Assembly (NCBI RefSeq): GCF_030028105.1
Contig: NC_092377.1
Coordinates: 28,330,782-28,394,781 of the forward strand
DNA length: 64,000 bases
Origin: Mobula birostris
Taxonomy: Eukaryota
Direction of reading: 5' to 3'
This document shows, piece after piece, positions 1-51,567 of the stretch (position 1 is the stretch's first letter; every line of letters begins with the position of its first letter). Position numbers and translations under genes: made by a program. The notes beneath the pieces were generated by a model. It saw only the letters and a list, made by a program, of their open reading frames with translations, was not told where the DNA came from and searched no databases.

Positions 1-420
1 TCCTATGTCTGAGCCAATTTTTAATCCAACTAACTAGTTTTCATTAGATTCTACGAGACCTAGCCCTCCAGACCAGCCTATCATGCGGAACCTTGTTGAA
101 GGCCATGGTAAAGTCCAAATAGACAACATCCATTGCCCTATCTTCACTTACCCTTCTGCTGCCTCTTCAAGAATTTCTAAAAGTTTCATCAAGCATGACT
201 TACAACATACAAAGCTATGCTGACTCCTCCTAGTCAGATATTATCATTCTAAATGCTGGAAGATTCAGAATTTCCATTACCGACCAGCCTGCAGTTCTGT
301 AGTTTGACCTTATCGCACTGTTTAAACAACATCATGGCATTAGTCACTTTTCAGTCCTTGAACTTCACCACTGTCTAATAATGAAGTACATATCTCCGCC
401 TCTGCAATTTCTTCTCTAGT
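1..420 (-). mobile_element. Old CR1 LINE RT fragment
   Basis: Reverse strand reads as the degenerate D(V)VYLDF..A..KVPHDRLV and YRPVSL region. Confidence 0.75.
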
Positions 421-584: not shown

Positions 585-1620
585 TGGATTAACTGTATCA
601 ACATCAGTCCTCACAAAAAATTGAACTGACAGTGCTAACAATTAGTTCCAATGCATTCTGCATTCATGGAGTTTTAGTTGCATAATGCTGTTTTTGGTGG
701 TTATACAAAATGAATTTCTAATCCCAATAGGTAATTCAACATTAACTGCAAGAAATGAACAGTAATGGAATTACCCATTCTTGACACAAGTGATTAAACA
801 TTTACAGCGGGAGAACTGACACTGCTGTTCCTTAACCTTGCAAATGAAGATCTTAATCTTTACAGGACTTATGCTAACAGTTTTAAGGTGACCAGCAACA
901 ATATTTTAACACTGTTAAATTGAAGTGAAACAATTTCTAAGATCAATAGTTTGCCCGCAGCACTGTCTGCAATAATTATGTAGCAGCAGATTAATCAGGA
1001 CACCGACTGCAATTATTATGTGCCAGGCGATGAATCCCGGTGTACAGCAATCATGCAATTCTGCTGCTGCAGATTCCTTGCAGTTTTGTCAGCTAAGAGT
1101 AAACAATACCTGAGTTTTATGGTAATAAGTAAAGAAAATCAAATTCACTGCAACACTGCAAAAGGTAATTATTTATAGTCAGCATTATCTGCCTTAAGTT
1201 TGCAGTCACAAGAAAAGTTAAACAGCATGTTTGTCTGCAACGTTGAATGCAATAATTGAAAGCAGATGTTTCTCCATCGTAATGAAGGCAGTAAATCTGT
1301 GTATATGAACTATCATGCATATTTTTATTTATTGGGTTTTCTATTACTGTGTTCTTTATCTTATTGTGTATTTTCTTGTGCTGCATTGGATCCAGAGTAA
1401 CAATTATTTTATCCTCCTTCACATTTCTGTACTGGAAATTATATTAAACAATCTTGACATTAAATAAACAGCAGCATCTTTCCAGTTGCATCAAGTGTAC
1501 TAATTGAAAAGGTAGCTGCAGATTTACCACGCCCTTGTTCTCAACAATTGAACTGCAGTATAGATAGCAGCAAGTAAATACTAGTAGGCTCTCCCCACGG
1601 ATTTCAGATATAGCTGGGCC
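585..1620 (+). repeat. Degenerate ~40-bp tandem repeat, patch A (interrupted by a LINE tail at ~1295-1458)
   Basis: cactgtctgCAATAATT (C at 970) and caccgactgCAATTATT (C at 1010) are 40 bp apart; further units near 1250 and 1500. Confidence 0.65.
1295..1458 (+). mobile_element. Rex1/Babar-like LINE 3' end
   Basis: gctgcattggatccagagtaacaattattt...attaaacaatcttga 3'-terminal motif. Confidence 0.55.
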
Positions 1621-1920
1621 TAGAAATCCCTAAAGATGTCATTCCAGCAGTTTGATTTCTGTATCACCCAACACAATATTGTGCTCACTTTTGAGGAAAT
1701 TTGACTCCTGACTGAAGGGTGGGAATTTAATTAATCTGGCATCCTTTACCAGCATACCCACTCCACCCCAAATAACATTAGCATATACAATTTATCCTGA
1801 GTGTGGTTTTCAACTTCATTTGTCTGGAAAAATTGTTCTCATTTATTCATAGAGCAAGCAGGCTTTAGTAACCCTTTTTCTCCCAAAACTGTTATATTTA
1901 AAGGCATTCTTGCCCCTCAC

Positions 1921-3063
1921 AAGAAACACAATATTGATGTTAAGGATACCATCAGAACGAGCTATTCAAATGCAAAAAGATTTTTTTTTGTTTTGTCGAC
2001 TACACAAAAGCATTTGATAAAGTGAAGCACAATAAGTTATTTGAAATATTACAGAAAGCTCTAGATCTAGATTCGAAAGACCTCCGCCTAATCAGAAATC
2101 TGTACTGGAAACAAACTGCCGCTGTAAGAATAGATGGAGAAGTGAGTCAGTTTACGAAAATCAAGAGAGGTGTTAGACAAGGGTGTGTTTTCTCGCCTGA
2201 TTTATTTAATGTGTACAGTGAAACAATATTACAAAAAATAAGAGACAAATTTGGGAATCGAAGTTGGTGGTGAAAACATCAATAATTTCAGATATGCAGA
2301 TGACACTATTAATTGCAAGTACGGAGGAAGAACTACAAAACTTAATTAATATAATTGTTGAAGAAAGTGCAAAAATGGGTCTATCTATCATTTGCAAAAA
2401 GACAGAATGTATGGTGATATCCAAAAGGAAGGGGAATCCTATCTGCAGGCTGTAAATAAATGGGGAAGACAGATCTTTTGCTACTCAGGAAGCTGGGTGA
2501 CATCAGATGGCAGGTGCGACATGGACATCAAAAGAAGAGTAGGGATGGCAAAAGACACCTTTACGAGAATGAAGAGTATACTGACCAATACTAAACTAGG
2601 CATGACAACCCGCCTCAGAGTACTGAAATGTTATCTTTCTCCAGTTATGTTATATGGCTCAGAATGTTGGACAACATCTAGTAACATGAGGACACAAATT
2701 GTAGCAGCAGAGATGTGGTTTTTGAGGAGGACGCAAAGAATATCATGGACGAAACGAATATCTAATGAGGATGTCATGAATAGAGCAAACACAAAAAGAG
2801 AAATAATGTATGAGATCATGAAAAGGCAACATAACTTCATTGGACATGTGATTAGGAAAGAGAAGTTAGAATGTACGGTAATTATGGGAAAGATGGAAGG
2901 GAAGAAAGCAAGAGGAAGACAAAGACAAATGATGATGGAGACAGCAACCAGAGAACTGGAAATGAATACCAATGAATTGACCCACTTGATCCGAAACAGG
3001 AGTGTGTGGGCCATGGCAGTCAAAGCTCAAACTGGGCATGGCACCTGATGATGATGATGATGA
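1921..3063 (+). mobile_element. RTE-clade (BovB-like) LINE, 5'-truncated, frameshifted RT
   Basis: DYTKAFDKV, GVRQGCVFSPDLFN, RYADD, LYGSECWT and GKKARGRQR motifs; (TGA)n tail; 10-bp TSD tgcccctcac at 1911-1920 and 3064-3073. Confidence 0.92.
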
Positions 3064-3317
3064 TGCCCCTCACTAAGATCTGTGATCTCAACTTTTCCTC
3101 AAATGAAATGCCACATGTATCTTCACGGTTTTGCAAATGGAGGGGGGAGTGTCACTTCACTTTCATTTTTGTATCCTCAGCATCATTCCAGACTGTTGTT
3201 GATGATCTCTGTCTCATCAATCTCCCAGTTTTCGCTCAGGGCTGAATCAGTGGTATTCTAAACTCCAAGTTCAAGGAGGGAAGACTCTTGCTACTTTTCC
3301 TTCTGTCTCCCAAAGCA

Positions 3318-6300
3318 GATAGAAACATAGAAAATAGGTGCAGGAGTAGGCTATTCTGCCCTTCGAGCCTGCACCGCCATTCAGTATGATCATGGCTGAT
3401 CATCCAACTCAGAACCCTATGCCTGTCTTCTCTCCATACCCCCGATCCCTTTAGCCACAAGGGCCATATCTAACTCCCTCTTAAATATAGCCAATGAACT
3501 GGCCTCAACTGTTTCCTGTGGCAGAGAATTCCACAGATTCACCACTCTCTGTGTGAAGAAGTTTTTCCTAATCTCAGTCCTAAAAGGCTTCCCCTTTATC
3601 CTCAAACTGTGACCCCTCGTTCTGGACTTCCCTAACATCGGGAACAATCTTCCTGCATCTAGCCTGTCCAATCCTTTTAGAATTTTATACGCTTCAATCA
3701 GATCCCCCCTCAATCTTCTAAATTCCAGAGAGTATAAGCCTAATCGATCCAGTCTTTCATCATATGAAAGTCCTGCCATCCCAGGAATCAATCTGGTGAA
3801 CCTCCTTTGTACTCCCTTTATGGCAAGAATGTCTTTCCTCAGATTAGGGGACCAAAACTGCACAATACTCTAGGTGTGGTCTCACCAAGGCCTTGTTCAA
3901 CTGCAGTAGTACCTCCCTGCTCCTGTACTCGAATCCTCTTGCTATGAATGCCAGCATACCATTCGCCTTTTTCACCACCTTCTGTACCTGCATGCCCACT
4001 TTCAATGACTGGTGTACAATGACACACAGGTCTCGTTGCACCTCCCCTTTTCCTAATCGGCCACCATTCAGATAATAATCTGTTTTCCTGTTCTTGCCAC
4101 CAAAGTGGATAACCTCACATTAATCCACATTAAATTGCATCTGCCGTGAATTTGCCCACTCACCCAACCTATCCAAGTCACCCTGCATCCTCTTAGCATC
4201 CTCCTCACAGCTAACACTGCCGCCCAGCTTCGTGTCATCTGCAAACTTGGAGATGCTGTATTTAATTCCCTCGTCTAAGTCATTAATATATATTGTAAAC
4301 AACTGGGGTTCCAGCACTGAGCCTTGCGGTACCCCACTAGTCGCTGCCTGCCATTCTGAAAAGGTCCCTTTTATTCCCACTCTTTGCTTCCTGTCTGCCA
4401 ACCAATTCTCTATCCATATCAATACCATACCCCCAATACCGTGTGCTTTAAGTTTGCACACTAATCTCCTGTGAGGAACCTTGTCAAAAGCCTTTTGGAA
4501 ATCCAAATATACCACATCCACTGGTTCTCCCCTATCCACTCTACTAGTTGCATCCTCAAATCATTCTATGAGATTCGTCAGACATGATTTTCCTTTCACA
4601 AATCCATGCTGACTTTGTCCGATGATTTCACCACTTTCCAAATGTGCTGTTATCACATCTTTGATAACTGACTCTAGCATTTTCCCCACCACCAATATCG
4701 GGCTTACCGGTCTATAATTCCCCTGTTTCTTTCTCCCTCCTTTTTTAAAAAGCGGGGTTACATTAGCCACCCTCCAATCCTCAGGAACTGGTCCAGAATC
4801 TTAAGAGTTTTGAAAAATTATCACTAATGTGTCCACTATTTCTTGGGCTACTTCGTTAAGCACTCTGGGATGCAGACCATCTGGCCCTGGGGATTTATCT
4901 GCCTTCAATCCCTTCAACTTACCTAACACCACTTCCCTACTAACATGTATTTCCCTCAGTTCCTCCATCTCACTAGACCCTCGGTCCCCTACTATTTCCG
5001 GGAGATTATTTATGTCCTCCTTAGTGAAGACAAAACCAAAGCAGTTATTCAATTTGTCTGCCATGTCCTTGTTCCCCATGAGCAATTCACCTGTTTCTGA
5101 CTGTAAGGGACCTACATTTGTCTTAACCAATCTTTTTCTTTTCACATATCTATAAAAGCTTTTACAGTCAGTTTTTATGTTCCCTGCCAGGTTTCTCTCA
5201 TAATCTTTTTTCCCTTTCCTAATTAAGCCCTTTGTCCTCCTCTGCTGAACTCTGAATTTCTCCCAGTCCTCAGGTGTGCCGCTTTTTCTGGCTAATTTGT
5301 ATGTTTCTTCTTTGGAATTGATACTATCCCTAATTTCCCTTGTCAGCCACGGGTGCACTACCTTCCCTGGTTTATTCTTTTGCCAAAATGGGATGAACAA
5401 TTATTGTAGTTCATCCATGCGATCTTTAAATGCTTGCCATTGCATATCCACCGTCAACCCTTTAAGTATCATTTGCCAGTCTATCTTAGCTAATTCATGT
5501 CTCATACCTTCAAAGTTACCCTTCTTTAAGTTCAGAAGCCTTGTTTCTGAATTAACTATATCACTATCCATCTTAATGAAGAATTCCACCATATTATGGT
5601 CACTCTTACCCAAGGGGCCTCGCACGACAAGATTGCTAACTAACCCTTGCTCATTGCTCAATACCCAGTCCAGAATGGCCTGCTCTCTAGTTGGTTCCTC
5701 GACATGTTGGTTCAAAAAACCCACATACATTCCAAGAAATCCTCTTCCTCAGCACCCTTACCAATTTGGTTTGCCCAATCTATATATAGATTGAAGTCAC
5801 CTACTATAACTGCTGTTCCTTTATTGCACGCATTTCTAATTTCCTGTTTAATACCATCCCCAACCTCACTGCTACTGTTAGGTGGCCTGTACACAACTCC
5901 CACCAGCGTTTACTGCCCCTTAGTGTTATGCAGCTGTACCCATATCGATTCCACATCCTCCCGGCTAACGTCCTTCCTCTCTATTGCGTTAATCTCCTCT
6001 CTAACCAGCAATGCTACCCCACCTCCTTTTCTTTCATGTCTATCCCTCCTGAATATTGAATATCCCTGAATGTTGAGCTCCCATCCTTAGTCACCCTGGA
6101 GCCATGTCTCTGTGATCCCAACTACATCATATTCATTAATAACAATCTGCACTTTTAATTCATCCACCTTGTTACGAATGCTCCTTGCATTGACACACAA
6201 AGCATTCAGGCTTGCTTTTACAACACTCTTAGCCCTTATACAATTATGTTGAAAAGTGGCCCTTTTTGATTTTTGCCCTGGATGTCAGCCTGCCACTTTT

Positions 6301-6435
6301 ACTATTCACCTTACTGCTTTTTGCTTCTACCCTCATTTTACACCCCTCTGTCTCTCTGCACTTGTTCCCATCCCCCTGCCACATTAGTTTAAATCCTCCT
6401 GAACAACAGTAGCAAAAGATCCCCCTAGGACATTG
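3318..6435 (-). mobile_element. Young CR1 LINE: end of ORF1 plus frameshifted EN-RT ORF2 and 3' tail
   Basis: YRPPNS, GDFN, SDH, KSPGPDGLHPRVL, FQKAFDKVPH, GVPQGSVL, KFADDTK and RPHLEYC motifs; (TTTCTATG)-type tail. Confidence 0.96.
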
Positions 6436-6835
6436 AGCAGGTATGGAGACTTAACTGCATCAGAGGCTTCCCAAAAGTGTGCATTGACTTTACGTATCCA
6501 TCCTGAGACCTCAAGCAAATCCCTTTCTGCAGGTGCCTAGTTGCAGCCCTGATGGGAGAACAAGCTTCCAGAGATATATGTTCACCAATATGTCCACATT
6601 CTTGGAATACCTCCCTCCCATTACTGTAGCTTCAATTCACCTTGTTGCAACAGTCAACTGTAGCTGGAAGAGTTTATTGCAGTGTCCATATAGCTAACTG
6701 TTGTCAGCTCTGACAACTTTACAGATGTAGAAAATGCTGCATTGAAGCTGACACATTACACTGGATAAGCCATCAATGATGGTGTGGAAGGTTCACATTT
6801 GAAAGTCTGTTCTTTTATCAGACTTAGTTTATTAA

Positions 6836-7085
6836 TTCATTCATCATGTGCTGTCATATGACAGGGACGATTATGATGTTTCCATGACCATGATTGTTCT
6901 TGATAAATTTTTCTGCAGAAGTGGTTTGCCATTGCCTTCTTCTGGGCAGTGTCTTTACAGGATAGATGATCCCAGCCATTATCAATACTCTTCAGAGATT
7001 GTCTGCCTGACCTCACTGGCTAGTGGAGGGAAGGAATGCCTCACACCTCCTTTGGTAGAGATGTATCTCCGCCCCGCCACTCTAG
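6836..7085 (-). mobile_element. RTE-associated SINE or non-autonomous element
   Basis: agaagtggtttgccattgccttcttc motif shared with BovB/Sauria-type elements. Confidence 0.55.
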
Positions 7086-7329
7086 ACTTTGATTAGACCA
7101 TCTTATGAGATTAGTTTACTGACGTGCAGTGTGCAATGTAATTCCTGTTCACAGTATGCATGCTAATAATAAATATAACAGTAAATATATCTATGAGTGC
7201 CAAATGGCAAAATGGTGGAGATATTGCAGTGTAATCTGAAGTAGCCAAAAAAGAAACACTAAAGTGACAATAATAGAATAACCCGGAGAGGTAAAAGTAA
7301 GAATACAAGAATGTGTCAGGATCACCAGG

Positions 7330-7930
7330 AAGGGAATGTGAAAGAGGTAATTGGTTCAGAAGTCTGAATTCAAAGGGAAAGTGACTACACTTAACTCTGG
7401 ATGCCCAGTCTTTTAAGCATTTGTATCTTTTCCCAGAAGGTAGAAGAAAGAAAATGTAATGGCTAAGATAATTACATCTTTGACAATACTATTAGCTTTC
7501 GTGAAGAAATGCACGTGAAGGTAGGCAGGAGAGAAGAAATGGAGAGCCTGTGATGGACTGGAATATGTTTACCACCTTCTGCAGATTCAGTCAGTCCAGA
7601 ACAGAGCAGTTGTCAGACCAGTCTGAGATGCAACCCATCATAAATCTGTAGAAGCATGGGGGAATCCTTGCGGACATGTTGAGTTTTCTCAGATGCCAAA
7701 GAAAGTAAATGCACTGATGACTGCATCAGTGTGAAAGGGCTAGGGGAAGGTTCAACTATCTCAATAGTGGCTCTGTTTTGGAGGACAGGCTTGTGCTCAC
7801 CATGGCACCCTTAATACCCAACGCGTTTGCATTGCTGATGAAATGGGGTAGATTGTTGTTCTGACACCATGGCACAAGGCTTACTGTCTCTTTCCTGTGC
7901 TCCATTTTCTCATATTTATGAATGTCTGAT
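7330..7930 (-). mobile_element. Old Rex1/Babar-like LINE fragment
   Basis: Degenerate match to the Rex 3' region seen at 19608-20080 and 37250-37750. Confidence 0.55.
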
Positions 7931-8025
7931 AAAGTCTCTATCAGCCTCCTAGCCTCAGAATCATTCTAGGAAAACAAGATATTGTTCTGAAGTTCTTAAA
8001 TGTAACAAAGCAATTCCTAGGCTCA

Positions 8026-8187
8026 AACAACAGGAATTCTGCAGATGCTGGAAATTCAAGCAACACACATCAAAGTTGCTGGTGAACGCAGCAGGCCAGG
8101 CAGCATCTGTAGGAAGAGGTGCAGTTGACGTTTCAGGCCGAGACCCTTCGTCAGGACTAACTGAAGGAAGAGTGAGTAAGGGATTTA
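8026..8187 (-). mobile_element. Penelope-derived short element (pLTR 3' part) carrying a hammerhead motif
   Basis: ctgcagatgctggaaattcaagcaacacac...gacgtttcaggccgagacccttcgtcaggact; 9-bp TSD ctaggctca at 8017-8025 and 8188-8196. Confidence 0.85.
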
Positions 8188-8242
8188 CTAGGCTCAGCAT
8201 TTTCCTGCAGCAGCAAATGTAACAATCTCAATGGCAGCAAAT

Positions 8243-10120
8243 GATACATTTGTCAGATGTGTTCAGGAACATTTCCTCAATCAGTACATATAAGTTCCAA
8301 CTAGAGAGAGTGCAGTACTAGATCTTCAAATAAGGATTGAGACAGTGCAAGTGGCAGATGTTTGTGTAGGAGAACACTTTGCATTAGTGAATAATGCCAT
8401 TAGTTTCAAGGTAATTATGGAAAAGGATAGATCTAATCCTCGGATTGAGATTCTAAATTGGAGAAAGGCCAATTTTGAGGGTATCAGAAAGGATCTGGCA
8501 AGTGTGCATTTGGGATAGATTGTTTTCTGGCAAAGGCGTACTTAGTAAGTGAGAGGCCTTCGAAAGTGAATTTTTGAGAGTAGAATTTATTTGTTCTTGT
8601 CAGAATAAAAGGCAAGGATAACAGGTTTATGGAAACTTGGTTTTGAGGGATATTGAGGCCCTGGTTAAGAAAAAGAAGGAGGTGCATAGCAGTTATAGGC
8701 AGGTAGGAGCAAATGAGGTACTTGAGGAGTATAAGAAATACAAAAGAACACTTAGAAGGAATTCAGGAGGGCTAAAAGAAGACATGAGCTTGCTCTAGCA
8801 GACAAGATGAAGAAGAATTCTAAGGGCTTCTAAAGAATTATTAACAGCAAAAAGATAGCCAAAAGAGATCGGAGAGAACTTAACCAGATTTTTTGCAACT
8901 GTATTTGCTCAGGAGACAGACTCAGAATCTATAGAAATGAGGCAAAGCAGTAATGAAGTCATAGACCCTTTGCAGATTGCAGAAGAGGACGTGGTTGCTG
9001 TCTTGAGGTCCCCAGGGCCTGACAAGGTCTTCTCTCAGACCCTGTGGAAGGCTGGTTCATAAACTGCAGGGGCTCTGGCAGAATAGTTAAAACATCCTGT
9101 GCCAAAGGATTGGAGGATAGCTATCTTGTTCTGTTGTTTAAGGAAGGCTCTAAGAATAAGCTAGGAAATTATAGGCTGGTGAGCCTGACATCAGTAGTGG
9201 GAAAGTTATTGGAAGGTGTTCCAAAGGACCGGATATACGGTGTTTGATTTACACCAGCCGTACCGTTTACTGTTGAGGTCTCAAAGTTTCACTTTGGTCT
9301 CATCTGTCCAAAAGACCTTTTTCCATATATTTACAATATCTTCGAAGTGACGGTTTGCAAAGTCTTTATGGGAAACAATATCCTTTTTTCTTAGTGGTGT
9401 AAATATAACATTGCGCATCAGCCGGGTAACATCACCCCTACTGTACAGTATGATGGAGGCAGCATCGTGCATTGGGGATGTTTTGCAGCAGCAGGGACTG
9501 GAAATCTTCTCAGGATTGACTTGATGGGAAGCTGAATGCTGCTAAGTACAGAGGGATCTTGAATAAACTGCTAACTTCTGCCAGAGGAAGCTCATCTTTC
9601 AGTAGGACAATGACCCAAAGCACACTGATGAGTAACCATGCCAGTCAAGTCCTGACCTTAACCTGATGGAACATCTCTGTCCACCGTCACTCTCCAACTA
9701 ACATGGCACAGCTTGAGCAGTTTTGCAAGGGGGAATGAACAAATCTTGCCCCATTACATGTACAAAGCTAATGGAGACTTATCCAAACAGACTATTGGCT
9801 GTAATAGCTGTGAGAGTTGGTTGAACTAAGTTCTGAGCAAAGGGGGATGAATACTTTTAAAATGACGTTTCAGGTTTTGAATTTTTAGATTTTCATGCTT
9901 TACAATTTTCCTTGTTTTTTTGTGCTCTTCCATGAAAAAAGGAGCATATGATTCACAAATAAAAATAAAAAATCCCTGGTTGTAATACTCATTTATGTGA
10001 ACAAAGGGCTGGGGGCAAAATACTTCTGCAAAGCACAAGGTGCAGGTTGGTGGGACTAAGCTGATTAATAGTTTGGCTCAAACCAGGTGGACCTGTGCTG
10101 TAGTGTTCTATGACCCTATA
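8243..10120 (+). mobile_element. Older CR1 (EN to RT start at 8243-9245, tail at ~10038-10120), with a Tc1 remnant in place of the RT
   Basis: FV.CVQE.FLNQY, GNYRLVSLTSVVGK; CR1-type tail ctgtgctgtagtgttctatg. Confidence 0.85.
9248..10037 (+). mobile_element. Tc1 transposon 3' half with IR/DR end; first ~150 bp inverted
   Basis: Minus-strand WKKVFWTDETKV, then plus-strand [20 protein letters not shown]; direct repeats ggggatgaatactttt and ggggcaaaatacttct in the right terminal region. Confidence 0.85.
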
Positions 10121-10430
10121 ATTCACCCAAATATTGAGTTCAATAATTACACAACTATATGTAGTATTCCCATCAATCCCGACTACAGGAACTAAGCATA
10201 AACAAAATTATCAAAACATTGTCCATAATAATTAAAAAAGAACCATTTTATTGCAATATGGAAGTGGTTTCTAAACAGCATTGATCATTATATTAACACA
10301 GCGTTAGATTCCTTAAGACACCAATTACAACAGTTAAGCAACACCATTTTCTTCCTCAAATTGATGGGAATCAAGAGTTGCTGTTTGACAGCAGTGAGTT
10401 CTCAAAATTATCAGCTGTGGAGAGAATTAA
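10120..10430 (+). repeat. Degenerate ~40-bp tandem repeat, patch B
   Basis: atattgagttCAATAATTac, acattgtccaTAATAATTaaa, gcattgatcattatattaac units. Confidence 0.55.
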
Positions 10431-10526
10431 TGTTTATGTATTGTAAGATGGTAGTCAAGTTGCCTGCTTTATCCAGGATGGTGTTCAGCTTCTTGAGTGA
10501 AATCAGAGTTGCACACGTCCGGGCAT

Positions 10527-13350
10527 GACTGAGCAAGCGCGTGGACCAGCGAGTTAGACCAGCACAAAGAGTTTAAAAGGAGAAAGCTTTACAGAGCGGG
10601 CAGTGAAGAAGAGGGCGACAGAGCAGGAGGGCTTTGGCTCAACAGGTTTTCGGTGATAACAGGTCGAGGTGAGGTAAGTTACCTGTGAGGAATAGAAACA
10701 GAAAGTATGTCTGTGAGGCCAGTGTTCTGTACTGTGTGTCAGATGTGGGAAGTCTGAGAAACTCCCAGCCTCCCAGACGGCCACATCTGCGCCAGGTGCG
10801 TCGAGCTGCAGCTCCTTAGGGACCAGTTCAGGGAACTGGAGATGCAGCTTGATGACCTTCACCTGGTCAGGAAGAGTGAGGAGGTGATAGAGAGGAGCTA
10901 TCGGCAAGTAGTCACACCGGGGACTCAGGAGACAGATAAGTGGGTAGCAGTCAGGAGAGGGCAGGGGAAGAGTCAGATACAAAGAGTACCCCTGTGGCTG
11001 TCCACTTAACAATGAGTACTCCTGTTTGAGTACTGTTGAGGGGGACAGCCTACCTGGGGGAAGCAACAGTGGCCTCACCTCTGGCACAGAGTCTGGCCCT
11101 GTGGCTCAGAAGGGTAGAGAAAGGAAGAAGGAAGCAGTAATAGACACTCTATAGTTAGGGGGTCAGACAGGTGATTCTGTGGATGCAGGAAAGAAACATG
11201 GATGGTAGTTTGCCTCCCAGGTGTCAGGGTCCGGGATGTTTCTGATCGCGTCCACAGTATCCAGAAGTGGGAAGGTGAATAGCCAGAGGTCGTGATGCAT
11301 ATTGGTACCAATGACATAGGTAGGAAAAGGGAGGAGGTCATCAAAAAAGACTACAGGGAGTTAGGAACGAAGTTGAGAAGCAGGACCTCAAAGGTAGTAA
11401 TCTCGGGATTACTGCCTGTGCCATGCAACTGTGAGTATAGGAACAGATTGAGGTGGAGGGTAAATGCGTGGCTGAGGGATTGCAGTAGGGGGCAGGGATT
11501 CAGATTTCTGGATCATTGGAACCTCTTTTGGGACAGGCGTGACATGTAAAAAAAGGACGGGTTGCACTTGAATCCCAGGGGGACCAATATCTTTGCAGGG
11601 ATGTATACTAAGGCTATTGGGGAGAGTTTAAACTAGAATTGCTGGGGGGTGGGAACAGAACTGAAGAGACGGAAGAAGGGGCTGTTGGCTCACAAATAGA
11701 GAAAGCTTGTAGACAGTGCGAGAGGGAGGATAGACAGGTGATAGAGAAGGGATGCACTCAGACTGATGGTTTGAGATGTGTCTATTTTAATGCAAGAAGC
11801 ATCATGATCCAGGACCGGATGAGGTGTACCCCAGGCTACTGTGGGAGGCGAGGAAGGTGTTTGCTGAGCCTCTGGTGATGATCTTTGCATCATCAGTGGG
11901 GAAGGGAGAGGTTCCGGAGGATTGGAGGGTTATGGATGTTGTTCCCTTATTCAAGAAAGGGAGTAGAGACAGTCAGGAAATTATAGACCAGTGAGTCTTT
12001 CCTCAGTGGTTTGTAAGCTGATGGAAAAGATCCTGAGAAGCAGGATTTATGAACATTTGGAGAGGCATAATATGATTAGGAATAGTCAGCACGGTTTTGT
12101 CAACGGCAGGTCGTGCCTTACGAGCCTGATTGAATTTTTTGAGGATGTGACTAAACACATTGATGAAGGTAGAACAGTAAGCGTAGTGTATATGGATTTC
12201 AGCAAGGCATTTGACAAGGTACCCCATGCAAGGCTTATTGAGAAAGTAAGGAGGCATGGGATCCAAGGGGAGCTTGCTTTGTGGATCCAGTATTGGCTTG
12301 CCCACAATGAGTGGTTGTAGATGAGTCATATTCTGCATGGAGGTCGGTGACCAGTGGTGTGCCTCAGGGATCTGTTCTGGCACCCCTTCACTTCGTGATT
12401 TTTATAATTGACCTGGATAAGGAAGTGGAGGGATGGGTTAGTAAATTTGCTGATAACACAAGGGTTGGGAGTGTTGTGGATAGTGTGGAGGGCTGTCAGA
12501 GGTTACAGTGGGACATCGATAGGATGCAAAACTGGACTGAGAAGTGGCAGATGGAGTTCAACCCAAATAAGTGTGAGGTGGCTGATTTCGGTAGGTCAAA
12601 TATGATGGCAGAATATAGTATTAATGGTAAGAATCTTGGCAGTGTGGAGGATCAGAGGGATCTCAGGGCCCGAGTCCACAGGGCACTCAAAGCTGCTGTG
12701 CAGGTTGACTCTGTGGTTAAGAAGGAATGCGGTGCATTGACCTTCATTAACTGTGGGATTGAGTTTATGAGCCGAGAGGTAATGTTACAGCTATATAGGA
12801 CCCTGGACGGACCCCACTTGGAGTACTGTGCTCAGTTCTGGTCAGCTCACTACAGGAAGGATGTGGAAGCTATAGAAAGGCTGCAGAGGAGATTTACAAG
12901 GATGTTGCCTGGATTGGACAGCATGCTTTATGAGAATAGGTTGAGTGAACTCGGCCTTTTCTCCTTGGAGTGACAGAGGATGGGAGGTGCATAAGGTGAT
13001 GAGAGGCATCGATCATATGGATAGTCAGAGGCTTTTTCCCAGGGCTGAAATGGCCAACACGAAAGGGCACAGTTGTAAGGTGCTCAGAAGAAGGTCCAGA
13101 GGAGATGTCAGGGGTAAGTTTTTTACACAGAGAGTGGTGATTGCTTGGAATGGGCTGCCAGTGATGGTGGTGGAGGCAGATACGATAGAGTCTTTTAAGA
13201 GACTCCTGGATAGGTACATGGAGCTTAGAAAAATGGAAGGCTATGGGTAATCCTAGGTAATTTCTAAAGTAAGTACATGTTCGGCACAGCATTGTGGGCT
13301 GAAGGGCCTGTATTGTGCTGTAGGTTTTCTAGGTTTCTATGTTTCTATGT
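10527..13350 (+). mobile_element. CR1 LINE with 5' end and ORF1 (Cys-rich zinc finger plus SGNH esterase); endonuclease domain deleted
   Basis: FCTVCQMW...HICARC, HIGTNDIG, DGLHL motifs; ORF2 start YFNARSI joined directly to PGPD..YPRLL at ~11805; RT motifs; tail ttttctaggtttctatgtttctatg. Confidence 0.93.
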
Positions 13351-13536
13351 ATTCGATCACATGAAAGATGCTGAAAGATGTTGAAAGACTTTGGCGAGAT
13401 AGGGGTTGGTTTGTTCACCACAGATTACTCATATAATTCACAATATTTATCTGACTGCATTATTCCTGTTTCCGAACGATGGAGATCTTTAGGAGATAGC
13501 AGGAGATTTTGGTATTGCTGATGAACGTCAAAGATA

Positions 13537-13730
13537 GGTAGCTGGCCGGTAGCATAGCGGCATCTGCACCAGACTTCGAAACAAGTGGTCCCAGGATCTA
13601 ATTCATCTGGCTGCTGGCTTGAGTGTCGAGCTACCGACTCGGCCTCATTAAAGCAAAAAACAGACTAAAGTGCTGAAGAAGCAGCAAGATTGCTGCATGA
13701 TACACCACAAGGCGCGGAAAGGAACAGCAA
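13537..13730 (+). mobile_element. tRNA-derived SINE (decayed)
   Basis: A-box-like ggccggtagcatagcgg head, B-box-like remnant, A-rich end. Confidence 0.5.
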
Positions 13731-13922
13731 TCAGGGGCAGGAGGCTTGATTCAGTCCTTTTGGTGGTAGCCATTGCACTCATTTTGTGGCATGAACATTA
13801 CTTGCCACCTATCCTCCCATATCTGAAGGTTGTGTAGACCTTGGTGCATGCAGTCATGGGAACATCGTTTACAGAGGGGTTTACAGGTAGAACTGAATAT
13901 CAGCACTTTTTATTACCATTTA

Positions 13923-14532
13923 CAGTGGTATGCAAAAGTCTGGGCACCCCGGTCAAAACTTCTGTTACTGTGAATAGCTAAGCGAATAAAAGATGAACTG
14001 ATTTCCAAAAGGCATAAAGTTAAAGATGACACATTTCTTTAATATTTTAAGCAAGAAAACTTCTTTATTTCCATCTTTTACAGTTACAAAATAACAAAAA
14101 AGGAAAAGGGCCCGAAGCAAAAGTTTGTGCACCCTACATGGCAGTACTTAGTAACACCCCCTTTGGCAAGTATCACAGCTTGTAAATGCTTTTTGTAGCC
14201 AGCTAAGAGCCTCTCAGTTCTTGTTTGGGGGATTTTCGCTCATTCTTCCTTGCAACAGGCTTCTAGTTCTGTGAGATTTATGAGCCGTCTCGCATGCACT
14301 GCTCTTTTGAGGTTTATCCACAGATTCTCAATGATGATTAGGTCAGGGGACTGTGAGGGCCAACACAAAACCCTCAGCTTGCGCCTCTTGAGGTAGTCCA
14401 TTGTGGATTTTGAAGGGCGTTTAGGATCATTATCCTGTTTAGGAGCCATTCTCTTTTCATTTTCGGCTCTTTTACGGACGGTGTGATATTTGCTTCCAGA
14501 ATTTGCTGGTATTTAATTGAATTCATTCTTCC
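13923..14532 (-). mobile_element. Tc1 transposon, one IR/DR end plus transposase C-terminus
   Basis: TA + CAGTGGTATGCAAAAGTCTGGGCACCC, inner direct repeat gcaaaagtttgtgcaccc; QDNDPK...WPSQSPDL..IENLW (DD34E). Confidence 0.93.
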
Positions 14533-14927
14533 AAGTCAGAATGATATGTGTCACTTGGAATTGCTTATAGCACCAATCACTTTGCTGATGATTGAGAGTA
14601 GGCTGATTGGGCAGTTGTGATTTGGATTGAATGCTTTCTGAGAATAGAATGTACCTAGAAAGTGTTCCATGCTATCTCATAGGTACCAGTAACATGTAAC
14701 TGTACTAGAATAGCTGAGCAAGAGACATGGCTGACCCTGGAATGAAGCTGTCCAGTGCTGCGTTTAATATCACTGTTGTCTGGTTGCATTGGCATTGTAT
14801 CCACTGCTCTCAGCCTTTTCTTGATGTCTTAGAATGTGAATAGAATTAGTTGAAAACTGGGCTCTGTAATGGTGAAAATCTCAGAAGGAAGCCAAGGCAA
14901 CTAATCCACTGGGCACTTCTGCCTGAT

Positions 14928-15400
14928 CACACTCTATAGTAATTAAAGATTAGCAGGCAGGCTTCTTATAACATTCACGGCAATAATTGGACAACACCAT
15001 ATTTGCTGCGATATTGACTACAGCAATTAAACAGGAATACTTTCTCTGCAGCATTGACAAGAAGTGTTAAATGGCTTCACCTTTCCTAACGCTGTAATTT
15101 ATCAGCAGAGCCTGGAAATTGGATGTAATCATACCCATTTATTATGTCCAAATCATGCATAAAGACTAAATGTGTTTTAACATGAAAATAACAATCCTGC
15201 CCATCGTGCAATTGAACTGCTTACTTCCAGGTGTAATTCACAGAAGTGCAACCTACGACTTTTATCAAACAAAGTGCACCCCTACAACAATTCAGTTGAA
15301 AGATATGAATTAAACTGTTCTTTATGCGTAGGAATATCAATGTGTAGTCAGCCTGAAATGTTATTGCTGTCCGTAATTGTCATGCTATTTCCAGGTCTTG
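14928..15400 (+). repeat. Degenerate ~40-bp tandem repeat, patch C
   Basis: acattcacggCAATAATTgg (14981) and atattgactaCAGCAATTaaac (15021), then gcattgacaa..., in a 40-bp register. Confidence 0.65.
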
Positions 15401-15623
15401 TTTATTGTGGACAGCTGTGGAGCAGGTGAGCAAACGTCCACCTCCCTGTGTTTGCCAAAAAAGTTTAGAAAAGGACACAGTGGTCCTTGTCAAGACTCAC
15501 CCTGAGCAGCTACCTAACACTGGAGTCTGTGATCTGTGAGCTGTTCACAGGGATGCACCCTGAGGGAAACATTAACTGCCACTAGAAGATGATCATCAAC
15601 TTGGTGAGAGCAGAAAATCATAA

Positions 15624-15822
15624 GTACAAAAGATTTTGCCGATGCTGGAAATGCAGAGTAACACACACACACACAAAATGCTTGAGGAGCTCAGCAGTTC
15701 AGACACATCTATGGAGAAGAATAAAGAGCTGACATTTCAGTCCCTTCATTGCTGAAGGTTCTAGGCCCAAAACATTGGCCCCTTATTCATCTCCATAGAT
15801 GTTGCCTGACCTGCTGAGTTCG
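15624..15822. mobile_element. Fold-back Penelope-derived short element (older)
   Basis: Left arm ...ctcagcagttcagacacatctatggaga is inverted relative to right arm tctccatagatgttgcctgacctgctgag. Confidence 0.7.
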
Positions 15823-16959
15823 TTAATGTGGTGAAAGATGCAGCCTGGTCCATCTGAAACCTACTGGCCTTGCAGTGTAATATGTCTGTAAATGAATGCT
15901 GCCACTGGCACGTTCCGAGGTGCAGGGGTTCCTACTGAGGGACATGTTGAAGCTTGGTACAAAGGTCACAAAGTACTTGCAGAAAGGACTACTGTCTGGT
16001 TCCCTGCCATCACTAAACACACAGGAGCTGGGTCCTGTTTTTATAACTGGCAAATAGGTGCACTGAGTTAGGTGGAAAGAAGCATAGTCTTAACATGTTG
16101 TAAGCAGATCAGTTTATCTGATTGTATAGTGGATTTTGAGAAAGATTTATTAAAGGTGCAATGAATGCTGAGCATGTCCTGTAAGCATTATAATGAATTA
16201 AGTGGTTTTGAGAGTAAAAGTATAATTAGAATTGAGGAGGTATGACGAATGACATGCCTTGTGTATTTACTGCATATTTCATGAATAAAGCATACTTTGG
16301 AAAACAAAAAAAAAACAAATTGTAAGCTTGGAAAACCATGCACAGCACTGATCTGCTGAGATCTCTGTGTGAGCCTTTCAGAAGGATGGGCCCTAATTGT
16401 GAGGGAGTGAAGGGATGGAGACAGGTTAGTGACGCAATGAAAACATCCCAGCAGAGATCTTTGCAGGGAGCTGCTATCAGGAATTTAAACACTCCAGCCA
16501 ATGTGAAAGCAGCACCAATAATTCTTCAAAAGGTAATTTTTTTCAGTTTAATTATTTTTTAATCTCCTTCCCCCCCCCAACATATGCACTTATTGATCTC
16601 ATAATATTAATACAGAGTACAGCAAATAAGGGTAAAATCTCATTTCTAGGCACAATAATTCCCTGGAGTATTTACTGCAATAATTAACCTGCCACAAAGC
16701 GCCTGCAGTAACCAATTGTAAACATTCAACAATAACAGATTTGCTGCATCTTTGGTTGCATTACTCAGATAGTTGCTCTTTCCATGCAACATTTGTGCAA
16801 TAATTAAACAGCAGCTAATGTCTCACAGCGCTGACTGCAATAATTAAAGACCTCCTGCAGCACTAAATGGAATACTTCCTGCGGGATTGGAGCTAATTTT
16901 CATGACTAATAGGAAACTGTTCAAACTATAGTTACTGCACTCCAGAATCAAGGTCACTC

Positions 16960-17867
16960 GGTAGTTGAGCAGTATGCAAACAAAATTCCTGTTTGTGTAT
17001 GCATGCAGGCTGAGCTCCAAGCCATCAATAACTTGTTCATTGAAGCATACAAGAGGATGGGGCTTTACACTCAATGCCAGCAAATCAAACAGCCTCTACC
17101 AGTCTGCAAAATGCACCACACCACATTATCATAAAGGTTCTGGAAAGCATGGATCTTTCCCCATATGTTGGGAGCAAACTCTCACAGCAAAGACAGACAT
17201 TGATGATAAAGTTTACCATTGCCCTCAATACACCAGCAAAGTCAATTGAAGAAAGGGGTATTTGGAGGTCAAGAGCAGATTTGGCATAAAACTCACGATC
17301 TGCTGGACAGGAGTGACCGGTGCTTACCTAGACTTGGACTAACAATAGCTATCACCTCAAGACAGTGGAAAGGTACTGCCATTTCTGACTCCACAAGATC
17401 CTCCAACTTCACTGAAAGGGTAAATAATTCAGAATTTTTCTATGCCCAACTCCACTAGATACCTAAAACAAATACACTTTTCCAAGCTTTGTCACTGGTA
17501 AAAAAAAATAGAGACGGACCGAGGAAAAGATTAAAAAGTTATGCCCTGAGTTTCCTTGATGAAAGTGCAACATCCCAACTGGCTCTTGGGAACTTCTGAA
17601 CCATCACTGCTCCATATTGAGGAGCACGTGGGATAATTTTGAAAACCTTGATGTCATGGTTGGGAACATAAAGGCCTACTTAAGTGGTGGGACAAAAGCA
17701 CACCATCTTATTAACTACCCCCTGCCCAATCATTAAATAGATCTTGCCCCATTTGCAGAAGAATCTGCAATTCCCACATTGCCCTGAGCAATGACCACAA
17801 AGCTCAAATAACTAGAGTTGAAGCATGTCATCCTTACTCCCAAAGGACTGCCTAAGATAGAAAAGAA
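16960..17867 (+). mobile_element. Old RTE-1-like LINE 3' fragment
   Basis: EAYKRMG.TLN, FP..G..L.AKTDIDD motifs; 3' end gtcatcctt...ggactgcctaagatagaaaaga. Confidence 0.7.
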
Positions 17868-17974
17868 CTGACTGTCTGTAGCATAACTAAAAAGTTGCAA
17901 TTTACATACAGCATTGACTACAGTAATCAAGTAACAATAACTAAACTGCAGTAGCATTACTGCAAACTTGACTG

Positions 17975-19090
17975 GGGGCAGAGTGCTGACATGGATTGAA
18001 AATTGGCTGGCTGACAGGAAACAAAGAGTAGCGATTTAACGGGTCCCTTTCGGATGGCAGGCGGTGACCAGTGGGGTACCACAGGGTTCAGTGCTGGGAC
18101 CGCAGTTGTTTACAATATACATTAATGATTTAGATGAAGGGATTAAAAGTAACATTAGCAAATTCACAGATGACACAAAGCTGGATGGCAGTGTGAAATG
18201 TGAGGAAGATGTTATGAGAATGCAGGGTGACTTGGACAGACTGGGTGAGTGGGCGGATGCATGGCAGATGCTGTTTAATGTGGATAAATGTGAGGTTATC
18301 CACTTTGGTGGTAAGAACGGGAAGGCAGATTATTATCTAAATGGAGTCAAGTTAGGAAAAGAGGAAGTACAACGAGATCTAGGTGTTCTTGTACATCAAT
18401 CACTGAAAGCGAGCATGCAGGTACAGAAGCAGTGAAGAAAGCTAATGGCATACTGGCCTTCATAACAAGGGGAATTGAGTATAAGAGCAAAGAGGTCCTT
18501 CTGCAGCTGTACAGGGCTCTGGTGAGACCACACCTGGAGTATTGCATGCAGTTTTGGTCTCCAAATTTGAGGAAGGACATTCTTGATATTAAGGGAGTGC
18601 AGCGTAGGTTCACAAGGTTAATTCCCGGGATGGCAGGACTGTCATATGTTGAACGATTGGAGCGACTGGGCTTGTATACACTGGAATTTAGAAGGATGAG
18701 AGGGGATCTTATTGAAACATATAAGATTATTAAGGGATTGGACACGCTGGAGGCAGGAAGCATGTTCCTGCTGATGGGTGAGTCCAGAACCAGAGGCCAC
18801 AGTTTAAGAATTAGGGGTAGGCCATTTAGAACGGAGTTGTGGAAAACCTTTTTCACCCAGAGAGTGGTGGATATATGGAATGCTCTGCCCCAGAAGGCTG
18901 TGGAGGCCAAGTCTCTGGATGCTTTCAAGAAAGAGATGGATAGAGCTCTTAAAGATAGCGGAATCAAAGGTTATGGGGATAAGGCAGGAACTGGATACTG
19001 ATAGTGGATGATCAGCCATGATCACAGTGAATGGTGGTGCTGGCTCAAAGGGTCGAATGGCCTACTCCTGCACCTGTTGTCTATTGTCTA
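17975..19090 (+). mobile_element. Young 5'-truncated CR1
   Basis: SGVPQGSVLGP, DDTKL, RPHLEYC; (TCTATTG)n tail; ttgactg at 17968-17974 and 19091-19097 is a probable TSD. Confidence 0.95.
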
Positions 19091-19607
19091 TTGACTGCTT
19101 TATTGATTGCAATAATTAAGAAGGAGCAGTTTACTGCAGGACTGATAACAATAACTAAGTACCAGCATCCTTTTGCAATACTGATTGCAATAATTGAATT
19201 GCAGTTGCTTGCCTCTACTATTGACAACAGCAAGTAAACCACAGCCATTTCTCAGTATTTTGGAATGTAATCATTAAAAAAAGTCGCATTGACTGCAATT
19301 ATTAAGCAGAAGCGGATTCCACACTTCATTGGCTTCAGTAATTCAGCAGCCATGACATATCTCCACAGCAGTGACTGCAGTATTTGAGCTGTAGCGGTCT
19401 TTGCCCTGGCATTAATTAAACAGAGCAACTTTTCTTCACAGAATCCCTGATAATGAAGAATGCTCGGCTCATTCATTCAAAACTGAATTGCAACCCTCAT
19501 TAACCATTCCTGACCATCCATTGCAATTTACTTCTGATCCAAGACCCCATCATGTGATATTTTCCAAATGAATGATGGCAGCTTGTGAATACTTCCTCAT
19601 CACAACA

Positions 19608-25570: not shown

Positions 25571-25785
25571 AAGCTGTGGCGGCTTGATGCTGAGTGTTTG
25601 TTTTGCTGAGAGCAAGACAAACGCTGAACGCTATTTGCGCTTTTTGCCACTCTCACTGCGTGGGGTGTGCGCTGCCCCTATAATGGCTCACTGCAAAACA
25701 AACGCTGAACGCTATTTTCGCTTTTTGCCACTCTTGCTGCTCGGGGTGCGTGGAAGTGCTACGATGGTTGCATCTGTACTGAACG

Positions 25786-26272: not shown

Positions 26273-26392
26273 CTTCTGGAGCTCCACAATTAGAAGAAAA
26301 CAGCGAGATTGCAAATAATGACCTGACTACTTGGAATTTCACTTGGCTGTTAAAGGATGAGACACCTTTGTCTACATATCAAAGACCACATG
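26273..26392 (+). CDS. ltk: Internal coding exon of an ALK/LTK-family receptor tyrosine kinase (equivalent to ALK exon 2, N-terminal extracellular region)
   Basis: Acceptor tctgtgttatAG at 26271-72 and donor GTgagt at 26393. Length 120 nt, phase 1-1, no stops: SGAPQLEENSEIANNDLTTWNFTWLLKDETPLSTYQRPH. Aligns without gaps to recalled human ALK exon 2 (also 120 nt; ...DYFTWNLTWIMKDSFP...), sharing D-x-x-TWN-x-TW-x-x-KD-x-x-P and the N-x-T sequon. Family call is strong; LTK versus ALK is only a modest lean to LTK. Confidence 0.88.
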
Positions 26393-51411: not shown

Positions 51412-51567
51412 AGTTCTACTGCGATTTTGAGACAGAGTGCGAGTTGGAGTATTCCTCTGATGGTGACAATGGATTAGCAGGTTGGGTGACTTTGACACCT
51501 CATGATCTTGCCCTGACCACTGATACTGCTGTACCAGATCACGATTACTCGGAGAAGTCAAGTGAAG
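51412..51567 (+). CDS. ltk: Internal coding exon of the same ALK/LTK gene, start of the first MAM domain (equivalent to ALK exon 3)
   Basis: Acceptor tgtcgtttcAG at 51410-11 and donor GTaagg at 51568. Length 156 nt, phase 1-1, splices in frame to the previous exon (G+AG=Glu): EFYCDFETECELEYSSDGDNGLAGWVTLTPHDLALTTDTAVPDHDYSEKSSE(G). Has the MAM signature C-x-F-E/D-x-x-C ... W ... P-x-x-D-x-S ... G; CELEYS is identical to human ALK. The PxxDYSxxxSEG end resembles my recollection of teleost Ltk. Confidence 0.9.

What the first reader, a model, noticed from the sequence alone, without database searches (positions are those of the whole stretch)
585..19480. Cryptic, co-oriented ~40-bp tandem repeat scattered over ~19 kb of the intron upstream of the first exon seen
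Seen: at least four patches (~585-1620, ~10120-10430, ~14930-15400, ~16585-19480) share a unit with approximate consensus GCATTGACTGCAATAATTAAACAGCAGCAGATTTNCTGCA. All are in + orientation with a 39-42 bp register despite heavy divergence. The conserved half holds a TAATTA palindrome overlapping TAAACA, and the unit junction forms TGCAG-CATTGA-CTGCA, a short inverted repeat. I found no convincing units downstream of exon 26273. Known: TAATTA is a homeodomain site and TAAACA a forkhead site. Inference: either an ancient intronic satellite shredded by later TEs, or the internal repeats of an unrecognised old transposon. The retained period and core could reflect a homotypic enhancer array for an ALK/LTK gene, a family expressed in neural and neural-crest lineages. 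I do not recognise it as a named repeat.
Basis: partly seen in the sequence, partly recalled or inferred. Interest (0 to 1): 0.7.

Follow-up and report, generated by a model that had tools for sequence, protein, structure and literature searches.

The report
Fossil 40-bp repeat in ray ALK
The first intron of a ray's ALK gene holds about 145 worn copies of one 40-base unit, scattered over 51 kb by later jumping-gene insertions and found as an array nowhere else in two genome-wide motif searches; the copies have worn down in the way ordinary mutation predicts, so this is likely a very old fossil repeat rather than a gene switch.

Summary
The repeat is real and larger than reported. It is one co-oriented 40-bp array: about 145 near-full units (32 in the window), 6.4 kb in all, spread over 51 kb. 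It begins 32 kb before the window and ends 6.8 kb before exon 2 of ALK (not LTK), in a 380-kb intron. None of 70 motif hits elsewhere in the genome has a tandem neighbour. Four other coded organisms carry it at single-copy depth. Units form a star, 70% identical to their consensus. Decay is strand-symmetric and AT-biased, with CpG two-step doublets and the ATTG T>C hotspot known from humans (63/277 against 76/826). The 'conserved core' is explained by base composition and context (matched test p=0.80). Intact TAATTA and TAAACA are no more frequent than independent decay predicts, and recent lineage changes still run away from the consensus (12 away, 3 toward). Best reading: a single-locus minisatellite that likely expanded once, stopped homogenising long ago and was pulled apart by insertions. 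One loose end: the array diverges about 0.5-0.65 times as fast as small flanks in three relatives, so weak array-wide constraint is not excluded.

The parts
737..1560 (+). Array patch in four HMM segments (737-800, 939-1158, 1213-1294, 1458-1560); among the most worn units (about 63% to consensus together with the next patch)
10121..10395 (+). Array patch, about 6 units; in register with the previous patch across an 8.6-kb gap (phase offset 1)
14934..15087 (+). Array patch, about 4 units
16658..16877 (+). Array patch, about 5 units
16880..17880 (.). Old dispersed repeat inserted in the array (at least 39 other loci at 68-85% identity over short stretches); array register resumes after it (offset -6)
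17883..17974 (+). Array patch, about 2 units, ending at a LINE insertion
17975..19090 (+). 5'-truncated LINE (CR1-type; name recalled from its ORF2 motif, not tested against a library), up to 16 local copies; the same 7 bases stand on both sides (possible target-site duplication)
19090..19438 (+). Last array patch, about 8 units; 3' end of the array, 6.8 kb before exon 2
26273..26392 (+). ALK exon 2 (120 bp, AG/GT bounded); 40 of 40 residues identical to Mobula hypostoma ALK-like protein P0003
51412..51567 (+). ALK exon 3 (start of the first MAM domain)
1..1 (+). Placeholder for the main body of the array, which lies before the window: G000:C9 about 28,298,894-28,318,886 (window coordinates -31,887 to -11,895; loci L009-L011), 113 near-full units, about 4.9 kb

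Best explanation
This is a single-locus 40-bp tandem array in ALK intron 1, about 145 units that are each about 70% identical to one consensus, which likely expanded once by unequal exchange or slippage, likely stopped homogenising long ago, and has likely since decayed without selection while insertions stretched about 6.4 kb to 51 kb. Shown: unit, orientation, extent, no second array among the tested hits, star-like relationships, the decay spectrum, presence in four other organisms. Inferred: one originally contiguous block (register across gaps), the mode of expansion, the age (0.37 substitutions per site, about 12 times the per-lineage distance to the two most distant organisms laid), and the absence of function.
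For: Star phylogeny: mean pair identity 0.547, spread 0.084 against 0.081 for column-shuffled units, no neighbour effect at lags 1-12, 7 of 780 column pairs at p<0.01; unit-to-unit spread fits chance (p=0.19). Strand-symmetric AT-biased matrix: C>T 0.224, G>A 0.219, A>G 0.095, T>C 0.105, stationary GC 0.32. Columns with the same strand-symmetrised trinucleotide agree (chi2 29.6, df 20, p=0.076); core against linker in shared contexts p=0.80. T>C in ATTG 63/277 against 76/826 in the other AT-start contexts, 2.5-fold, p=3e-8; this context is hypermutable in human (PMC3152918 abstract) and less so in mouse (PMC3766559 passages). TG/CA double changes 38 against 14.0 expected and CG intermediates 15 against 42.8 over 7 column pairs. 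Changes shared by organisms C, D and F against the window's organism: 12 away from consensus, 3 toward, 5 neither; neutral decay predicts 14.0/2.5/3.5; equal flux rejected at p=0.035. 0 of 70 outside hits with an in-register pair, 16 of 16 in-array controls with one.
Against: In one search the array diverges less than adjoining non-array DNA in three of four runs (fitted 3.7% against 6.9%, p=0.03; 5.9% against 9.2%, p=0.20; 2.3% against 15.3%, p=0.005 from only three mixed pieces; 1.5% against 1.5%); shared changes 21/1340 against 16/543, p=0.065. Composition alone predicts a ratio of 0.96, and the flanks hold more CpG (3.4% against 0.9% of sites), so part of the gap remains unexplained; the runs share branches and the flanks are short. 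G/C columns of the core are better kept before context matching (0.70 against 0.62, p=0.002), and the matched test uses only 8 core and 11 linker columns. Identity differs along the array (p=0.02). The implied age is very great, and long survival with the register kept could itself reflect selection against deletion. Register across gaps is only marginally significant (p=0.047; 6 of 17 gaps are out of register).
Confidence: 0.72

Rival explanations
1. The array is a weakly constrained homotypic enhancer of ALK: many redundant SoxE-like or homeodomain sites, none essential, so that selection slows the whole array slightly without favouring single columns.
For: The consensus shares 10 consecutive bases with the reverse complement of the SOX8 HT-SELEX consensus printed in PMC5449588 (one table row seen). 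The array still holds 9 intact copies of that 10-mer (1.39 per kb against 0.008 outside) and 35 TAATTA (5.4 per kb against 0.43). Slower cross-species divergence than flanks in 3 of 4 runs. alk is expressed in neural crest domains in Xenopus (PMC7616747, title in search listing only).
Against: Intact motifs are not above independent-column expectation (10-mer 7 against 4.7; TAATTA 29 against 29.4). The two ATTG/CAAT half-sites carry the array's two fastest AT-context transitions (21% and 25%). Net flux is away from consensus. No well-kept subset of units. High motif density follows from the repeat itself.
Confidence: 0.17
2. The array is the internal minisatellite of an old transposon (Helitron-like or similar), of which this is the last recognisable copy.
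For: Helitrons are known to carry minisatellites (bioRxiv 10.64898/2026.08.08.743475, start of abstract in listing only). All units are co-oriented.
Against: No second array: 0 of 70 outside hits; estimated detection power 0.90 for 20 units and 0.97 for 30 units of this age. The 921 bases at the 5' end match only themselves; the first 125 bases after the 3' end match no other locus and the dispersed repeat starts further on. A 16/20 match of the unit junction to the LINE does not extend (30- and 40-base tests within shuffles).
Confidence: 0.07
3. The units act on the ALK pre-mRNA as decoy or recursive splice acceptors or as repeated hairpins.
For: The unit junction reads like a weak acceptor in the sense of transcription, and the consensus holds short inverted repeats (seen directly). 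Splice-junction minisatellites were noted elsewhere in this genome (earlier findings, unchecked).
Against: The G of the AG is kept in 59% of units, like its context twin at 60%. No pairing excess in two tested stems. The unit does not resemble the exon 2 acceptor or the region at the end of exon 1 beyond shuffles. No Rfam family on the array.
Confidence: 0.04

Closest known systems
Single-locus intronic minisatellites that have stopped homogenising (fossil or 'dead' tandem repeats; general class, recalled)
   Same: Head-to-tail units of 10-60 bp at one locus, intronic, no coding frame (period 40), decay by point mutation and small indels, broken up by later insertions.
   Different: Larger (about 145 units, 6.4 kb) and far more worn (55% pair identity) than what TRF detects; visible only with a profile; stretched eightfold by insertions with register often kept.
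SoxE dimer-type site (SOX8 HT-SELEX consensus, PMC5449588 table row) and homotypic binding-site clusters (recalled)
   Same: 10 consecutive consensus bases match; many copies in one orientation in the intron of a neural-crest-expressed receptor gene.
   Different: The match does not cover the whole motif; sites are not preferentially kept; the half-sites decay at a known mutational hotspot.
Helitron-borne minisatellites (bioRxiv 10.64898/2026.08.08.743475, start of abstract only)
   Same: Minisatellite with an AT-rich tract lying in an intron.
   Different: No second copy and no element ends found here; 10-bp periodicity was not tested.
Splice-junction minisatellites such as human F7 intron 7 (known to me only through earlier scan notes)
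   Same: Intronic array of about 40-bp units in a cartilaginous fish that has worn evenly.
   Different: This unit does not derive from either tested exon boundary of ALK and does not abut an exon.

Membership tests
Fossil single-locus minisatellite | Head-to-tail units of fixed 10-60 bp period | tested here: met
   103 units >=12 bits on +, 0 on -, 71 in-register pairs; lag-40 peak on upstream blocks
Fossil single-locus minisatellite | Confined to one locus | tested here: met
   0 of 70 outside pattern hits with a tandem neighbour; 16 of 16 controls; arrays under about 20 units could be missed
Fossil single-locus minisatellite | No recent homogenisation | tested here: met
   No neighbour similarity; top pair identity 0.875 against a null mean maximum of 0.855
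Fossil single-locus minisatellite | Substitution pattern of unconstrained DNA | tested here: met
Fossil single-locus minisatellite | Cross-species rate equal to matched neutral DNA | tested here: inconclusive
   Array 0.5-0.65 times the rate of short, CpG-richer flanks in three runs, equal in one; no larger matched control was obtained
Homotypic enhancer array (SoxE, homeodomain or forkhead) | Binding motif kept better than spacer | tested here: not met
   Context-matched p=0.80; intact motif counts at expectation
Homotypic enhancer array (SoxE, homeodomain or forkhead) | High local density of the motif | tested here: met
   follows from the repeat itself
Homotypic enhancer array (SoxE, homeodomain or forkhead) | Open chromatin, factor binding, reporter activity | not testable with these tools
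   No chromatin data available
Transposon-internal minisatellite | Other copies of the array with shared flanks | tested here: not met
Named repeat in Dfam or Repbase | Profile match to a library entry | not testable with these tools
   These libraries are not held; a literature search with three unit words gave 2 unrelated papers
Structured RNA array | Covarying base pairs or an Rfam match | tested here: not met
   Two stems without excess pairing; 2 sub-threshold Rfam hits in 4 loci, both in a non-array gap

The most novel reading that the evidence does not exclude
The array predates the split of rays and sharks, lies at the same place in ALK intron 1 across cartilaginous fishes (perhaps jawed vertebrates), and persists as a redundant SoxE-type enhancer under weak array-wide selection: an enhancer built from more than a hundred tandem copies and still working after being stretched eightfold by insertions.
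Probability: 0.12. Interest if true: 0.65.

Novelty: new member of a known kind. Interest (0 to 1): 0.3.

Why it matters
As a fossil it is ordinary in kind but a useful ruler: 145 copies of one known ancestral 40-mer read out the long-term mutation spectrum of a cartilaginous fish at one locus (AT bias, CpG decay, and an ATTG T>C excess that the two papers read report for human and, more weakly, mouse), and show that this part of the intron grew about eightfold by insertion with the register often intact. If the slower cross-species rate held up against a proper control, it would be a candidate ancient enhancer of ALK, a neural-crest and neuroblastoma gene.

Tried and rejected
An iterated matrix drifted onto LINE copies, so held-out matrices were used instead. 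BLAST with the last patch found only itself. A genome-wide profile search was not possible; two 20-base patterns with up to 2 mismatches and one exact 17-base pattern stood in, and their reversed controls contain CG and so under-count chance. The HMM segment 19660-19696 was dropped as a false positive inside a dispersed repeat; it held no near-full unit. LTK paralogue on C1: 300 kb ending in the kinase exons has no in-register pair, but its first exons were not located, so its intron 1 may not be covered. The other 327 kb of fetched sequence from ALK exon 1 to the array and 40 kb beyond the window have no pair. Metagenome scan: 5 exact 20-base hits, none with a neighbouring unit. Origin from the LINE, the exon 2 acceptor or the end of exon 1: not above shuffles beyond 20 bases. 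Expression: no RNA holder listed. A tree of every second unit was built but not displayed, so nothing rests on it. Dating with the epaulette shark rate (7e-10 per generation, PMC10587355 passages) gives about 5e8 generations, which is implausibly old; no absolute age is claimed. Literature searches found no description of this repeat; subscription journals and supplements were not covered.
Full report
Setting. The window is G000:C9:28,330,782-28,394,781 of a 4.0-Gb genome. The exon at 51412-51567 is 94% identical to an ALK-like protein of Mobula hypostoma, P0003, and the exon at 26273-26392 matches it at 40 of 40 residues, so the animal is likely a devil-ray relative. P0003's ectodomain scores 510 bits against solved ALK and 311 against LTK, and a separate paralogue lies on C1: the gene is ALK. 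Exon 1 maps at C9:27,976,354-27,976,851, so intron 1 is about 380 kb.

The observation. A matrix trained on one set of patches does find the others: 11, 10 and 9 held-out + strand units at 14 bits or more for three training splits, 1 on the - strand each time, against control means of 0.8, 0.3 and 0.6.

Extent. In 264 kb (200 kb upstream plus the window) the hits form one cluster from window coordinate -31,132 to 19,406. A circular profile HMM gives 6,444 array bases over a span of 51,326 (eightfold stretch), with 145 units of at least 30 aligned columns, 32 of them in the window. The array ends 6.8 kb before exon 2. Of the span, 22.7 kb is covered by repeats with other local copies; one 'unique' 1-kb gap that I tested is an old dispersed repeat. 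Across the 17 gaps of 300 bp or more, the unit phase resumes within 7 bases in 11 (permutation p=0.047). This suggests, without proving, one originally contiguous block.

Single locus. Three pattern searches gave 70 distinct places outside the array. All 70 were fetched with 1.5 kb on each side; none has two units in register, whereas 16 of 16 windows around in-array hits do. From the in-array hit rates (9 and 7 of 145) an equally old array of 20 units would be hit with probability about 0.9. The rest of ALK intron 1, 40 kb beyond the window and 300 kb at LTK have no pair (LTK intron 1 not located). The 5' end matches only itself and the bases just after the 3' end match nothing else.

How the units are related. 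Mean identity to consensus is 0.70, or 0.37 substitutions per site under a general matrix with 3 two-state columns left out. Pair identities (mean 0.547) spread as in column-shuffled data, neighbours are no closer than distant units, and 7 of 780 column pairs reach p<0.01. Six regions of the array give nearly the same consensus. This is a star: one unit amplified and then left alone. The unit itself shows weak self-similarity at lags 3, 12 and 14, suggesting an older 12-14-bp subunit (inference).

Is the core constrained? Raw identity is 0.75 in columns 4-22 and 0.65 elsewhere. A/T columns are equal (0.765 and 0.768); G/C columns differ (0.70 and 0.62, p=0.002). Grouped by strand-symmetrised trinucleotide, columns agree (p=0.076 for residual heterogeneity) and the core-linker difference vanishes (p=0.80; 8 core and 11 linker columns share contexts). 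Intact TAATTA: 29 of 133 units against 29.4 expected; TAAACA: 21 of 135 against 20.7; the 10-mer shared with the SOX8 SELEX consensus (PMC5449588, one table row seen): 7 of 121 against 4.7. The matrix is strand-symmetric and AT-biased. TG/CA double changes are in excess and CG intermediates are depleted (38 against 14.0; 15 against 42.8), as expected in methylated DNA (established knowledge). The two ATTG-context columns show T>C in 63 of 277 against 76 of 826 in the six other AT-start columns (p=3e-8); ATTG is a reported hypermutable word in human (PMC3152918, abstract) and more weakly in mouse (PMC3766559, abstract and passages). These are positions that a SOX half-site would be expected to need (recalled).

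Other organisms. Runs of four other coded organisms (B, C, D, F) were laid on L009:2500-8300. All cover array blocks at single-copy depth while the inserted repeats draw thousands of contigs. Pieces differ by about 1.5% (B), 2-6% (C) and 6-9% (D, F). The table of differences showed 40 of 502 rows; I dropped one multi-contig row. Of the 39 left, 21 fall in the array (20 in match columns) and 18 outside. Taking the state shared by C, D and F as ancestral (inferred from the nested distances), 12 changes lead away from consensus, 3 toward, 5 neither; neutral decay predicts 14.0, 2.5 and 3.5. Against my reading: the array diverges less than its flanks in C, D and F (fitted rates under Best explanation), and shared changes are 21 in about 1340 array bases against 16 in about 543 flank bases (two flank rows not covered by all three runs left out; denominators estimated by hand; p=0.065). 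Composition and CpG explain part of this. No larger control was obtained, so the point stays open.

Age. The distance to consensus is about 12 times the per-lineage distance to D and F, and the array is cut by repeats that are themselves only 68-85% alike among copies. A pedigree rate from a shark (PMC10587355, passages) gives an implausibly great age, so only relative age is claimed; variation among units at the time of expansion (columns 3, 32 and 35 are two-state) may inflate the distance.

Mechanism and verdict. Most likely a minisatellite that expanded at one place in ALK intron 1 (inferred), froze (shown by the star), was split by successive insertions (shown for tested gaps; contiguity inferred) and is still eroding (shown on 20 changes). 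Confidence 0.72; weak enhancer-type constraint 0.17; orphan transposon interior 0.07; RNA or splicing role 0.04. I found no description of the repeat in five literature searches, and repeat libraries were not available. It is a new member of a known kind, of modest interest as a long-term mutation and insertion ruler.

Noticed in passing
array columns 5 and 14, all 145 units: T>C in the word ATTG is about 2.5 times other AT-start contexts, suggesting that this hotspot reported in human and mouse also acts in a cartilaginous fish; based on two columns at one locus.
   Followed up: partly
G000:C9:27.98-29.21 Mb: ALK spans more than 1.2 Mb here (exon 1 to kinase exons), with a 380-kb first intron; the LTK paralogue on C1 packs its glycine-rich to kinase exons into about 60 kb, and no MAM exons were detected in the 240 kb upstream by tblastn with ALK.
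   Followed up: partly
L009:3255-4866: Organisms D and F have about 680-700 bases where the window's organism has about 1610, so a repeat here was inserted or replaced after their split.
   Followed up: no
window 25612-25748: A two-copy direct repeat with period 81 inside what looks like a short DNA transposon with inverted ends.
   Followed up: no
window about 1920-3060: LINE fragment on the + strand ending in a (TGA)n tail (RTE-like; name recalled), between the first and second array patches.
   Followed up: no
window 18532-18551: The unit junction matches 16 of 20 bases of the inserted LINE's ORF2; the match does not extend and is probably chance.
   Followed up: yes
window 737-1560 and 10121-10395: These 15 units are more worn (63%) than the rest (70-74%), p=0.02 across six regions; unexplained.
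   Followed up: partly
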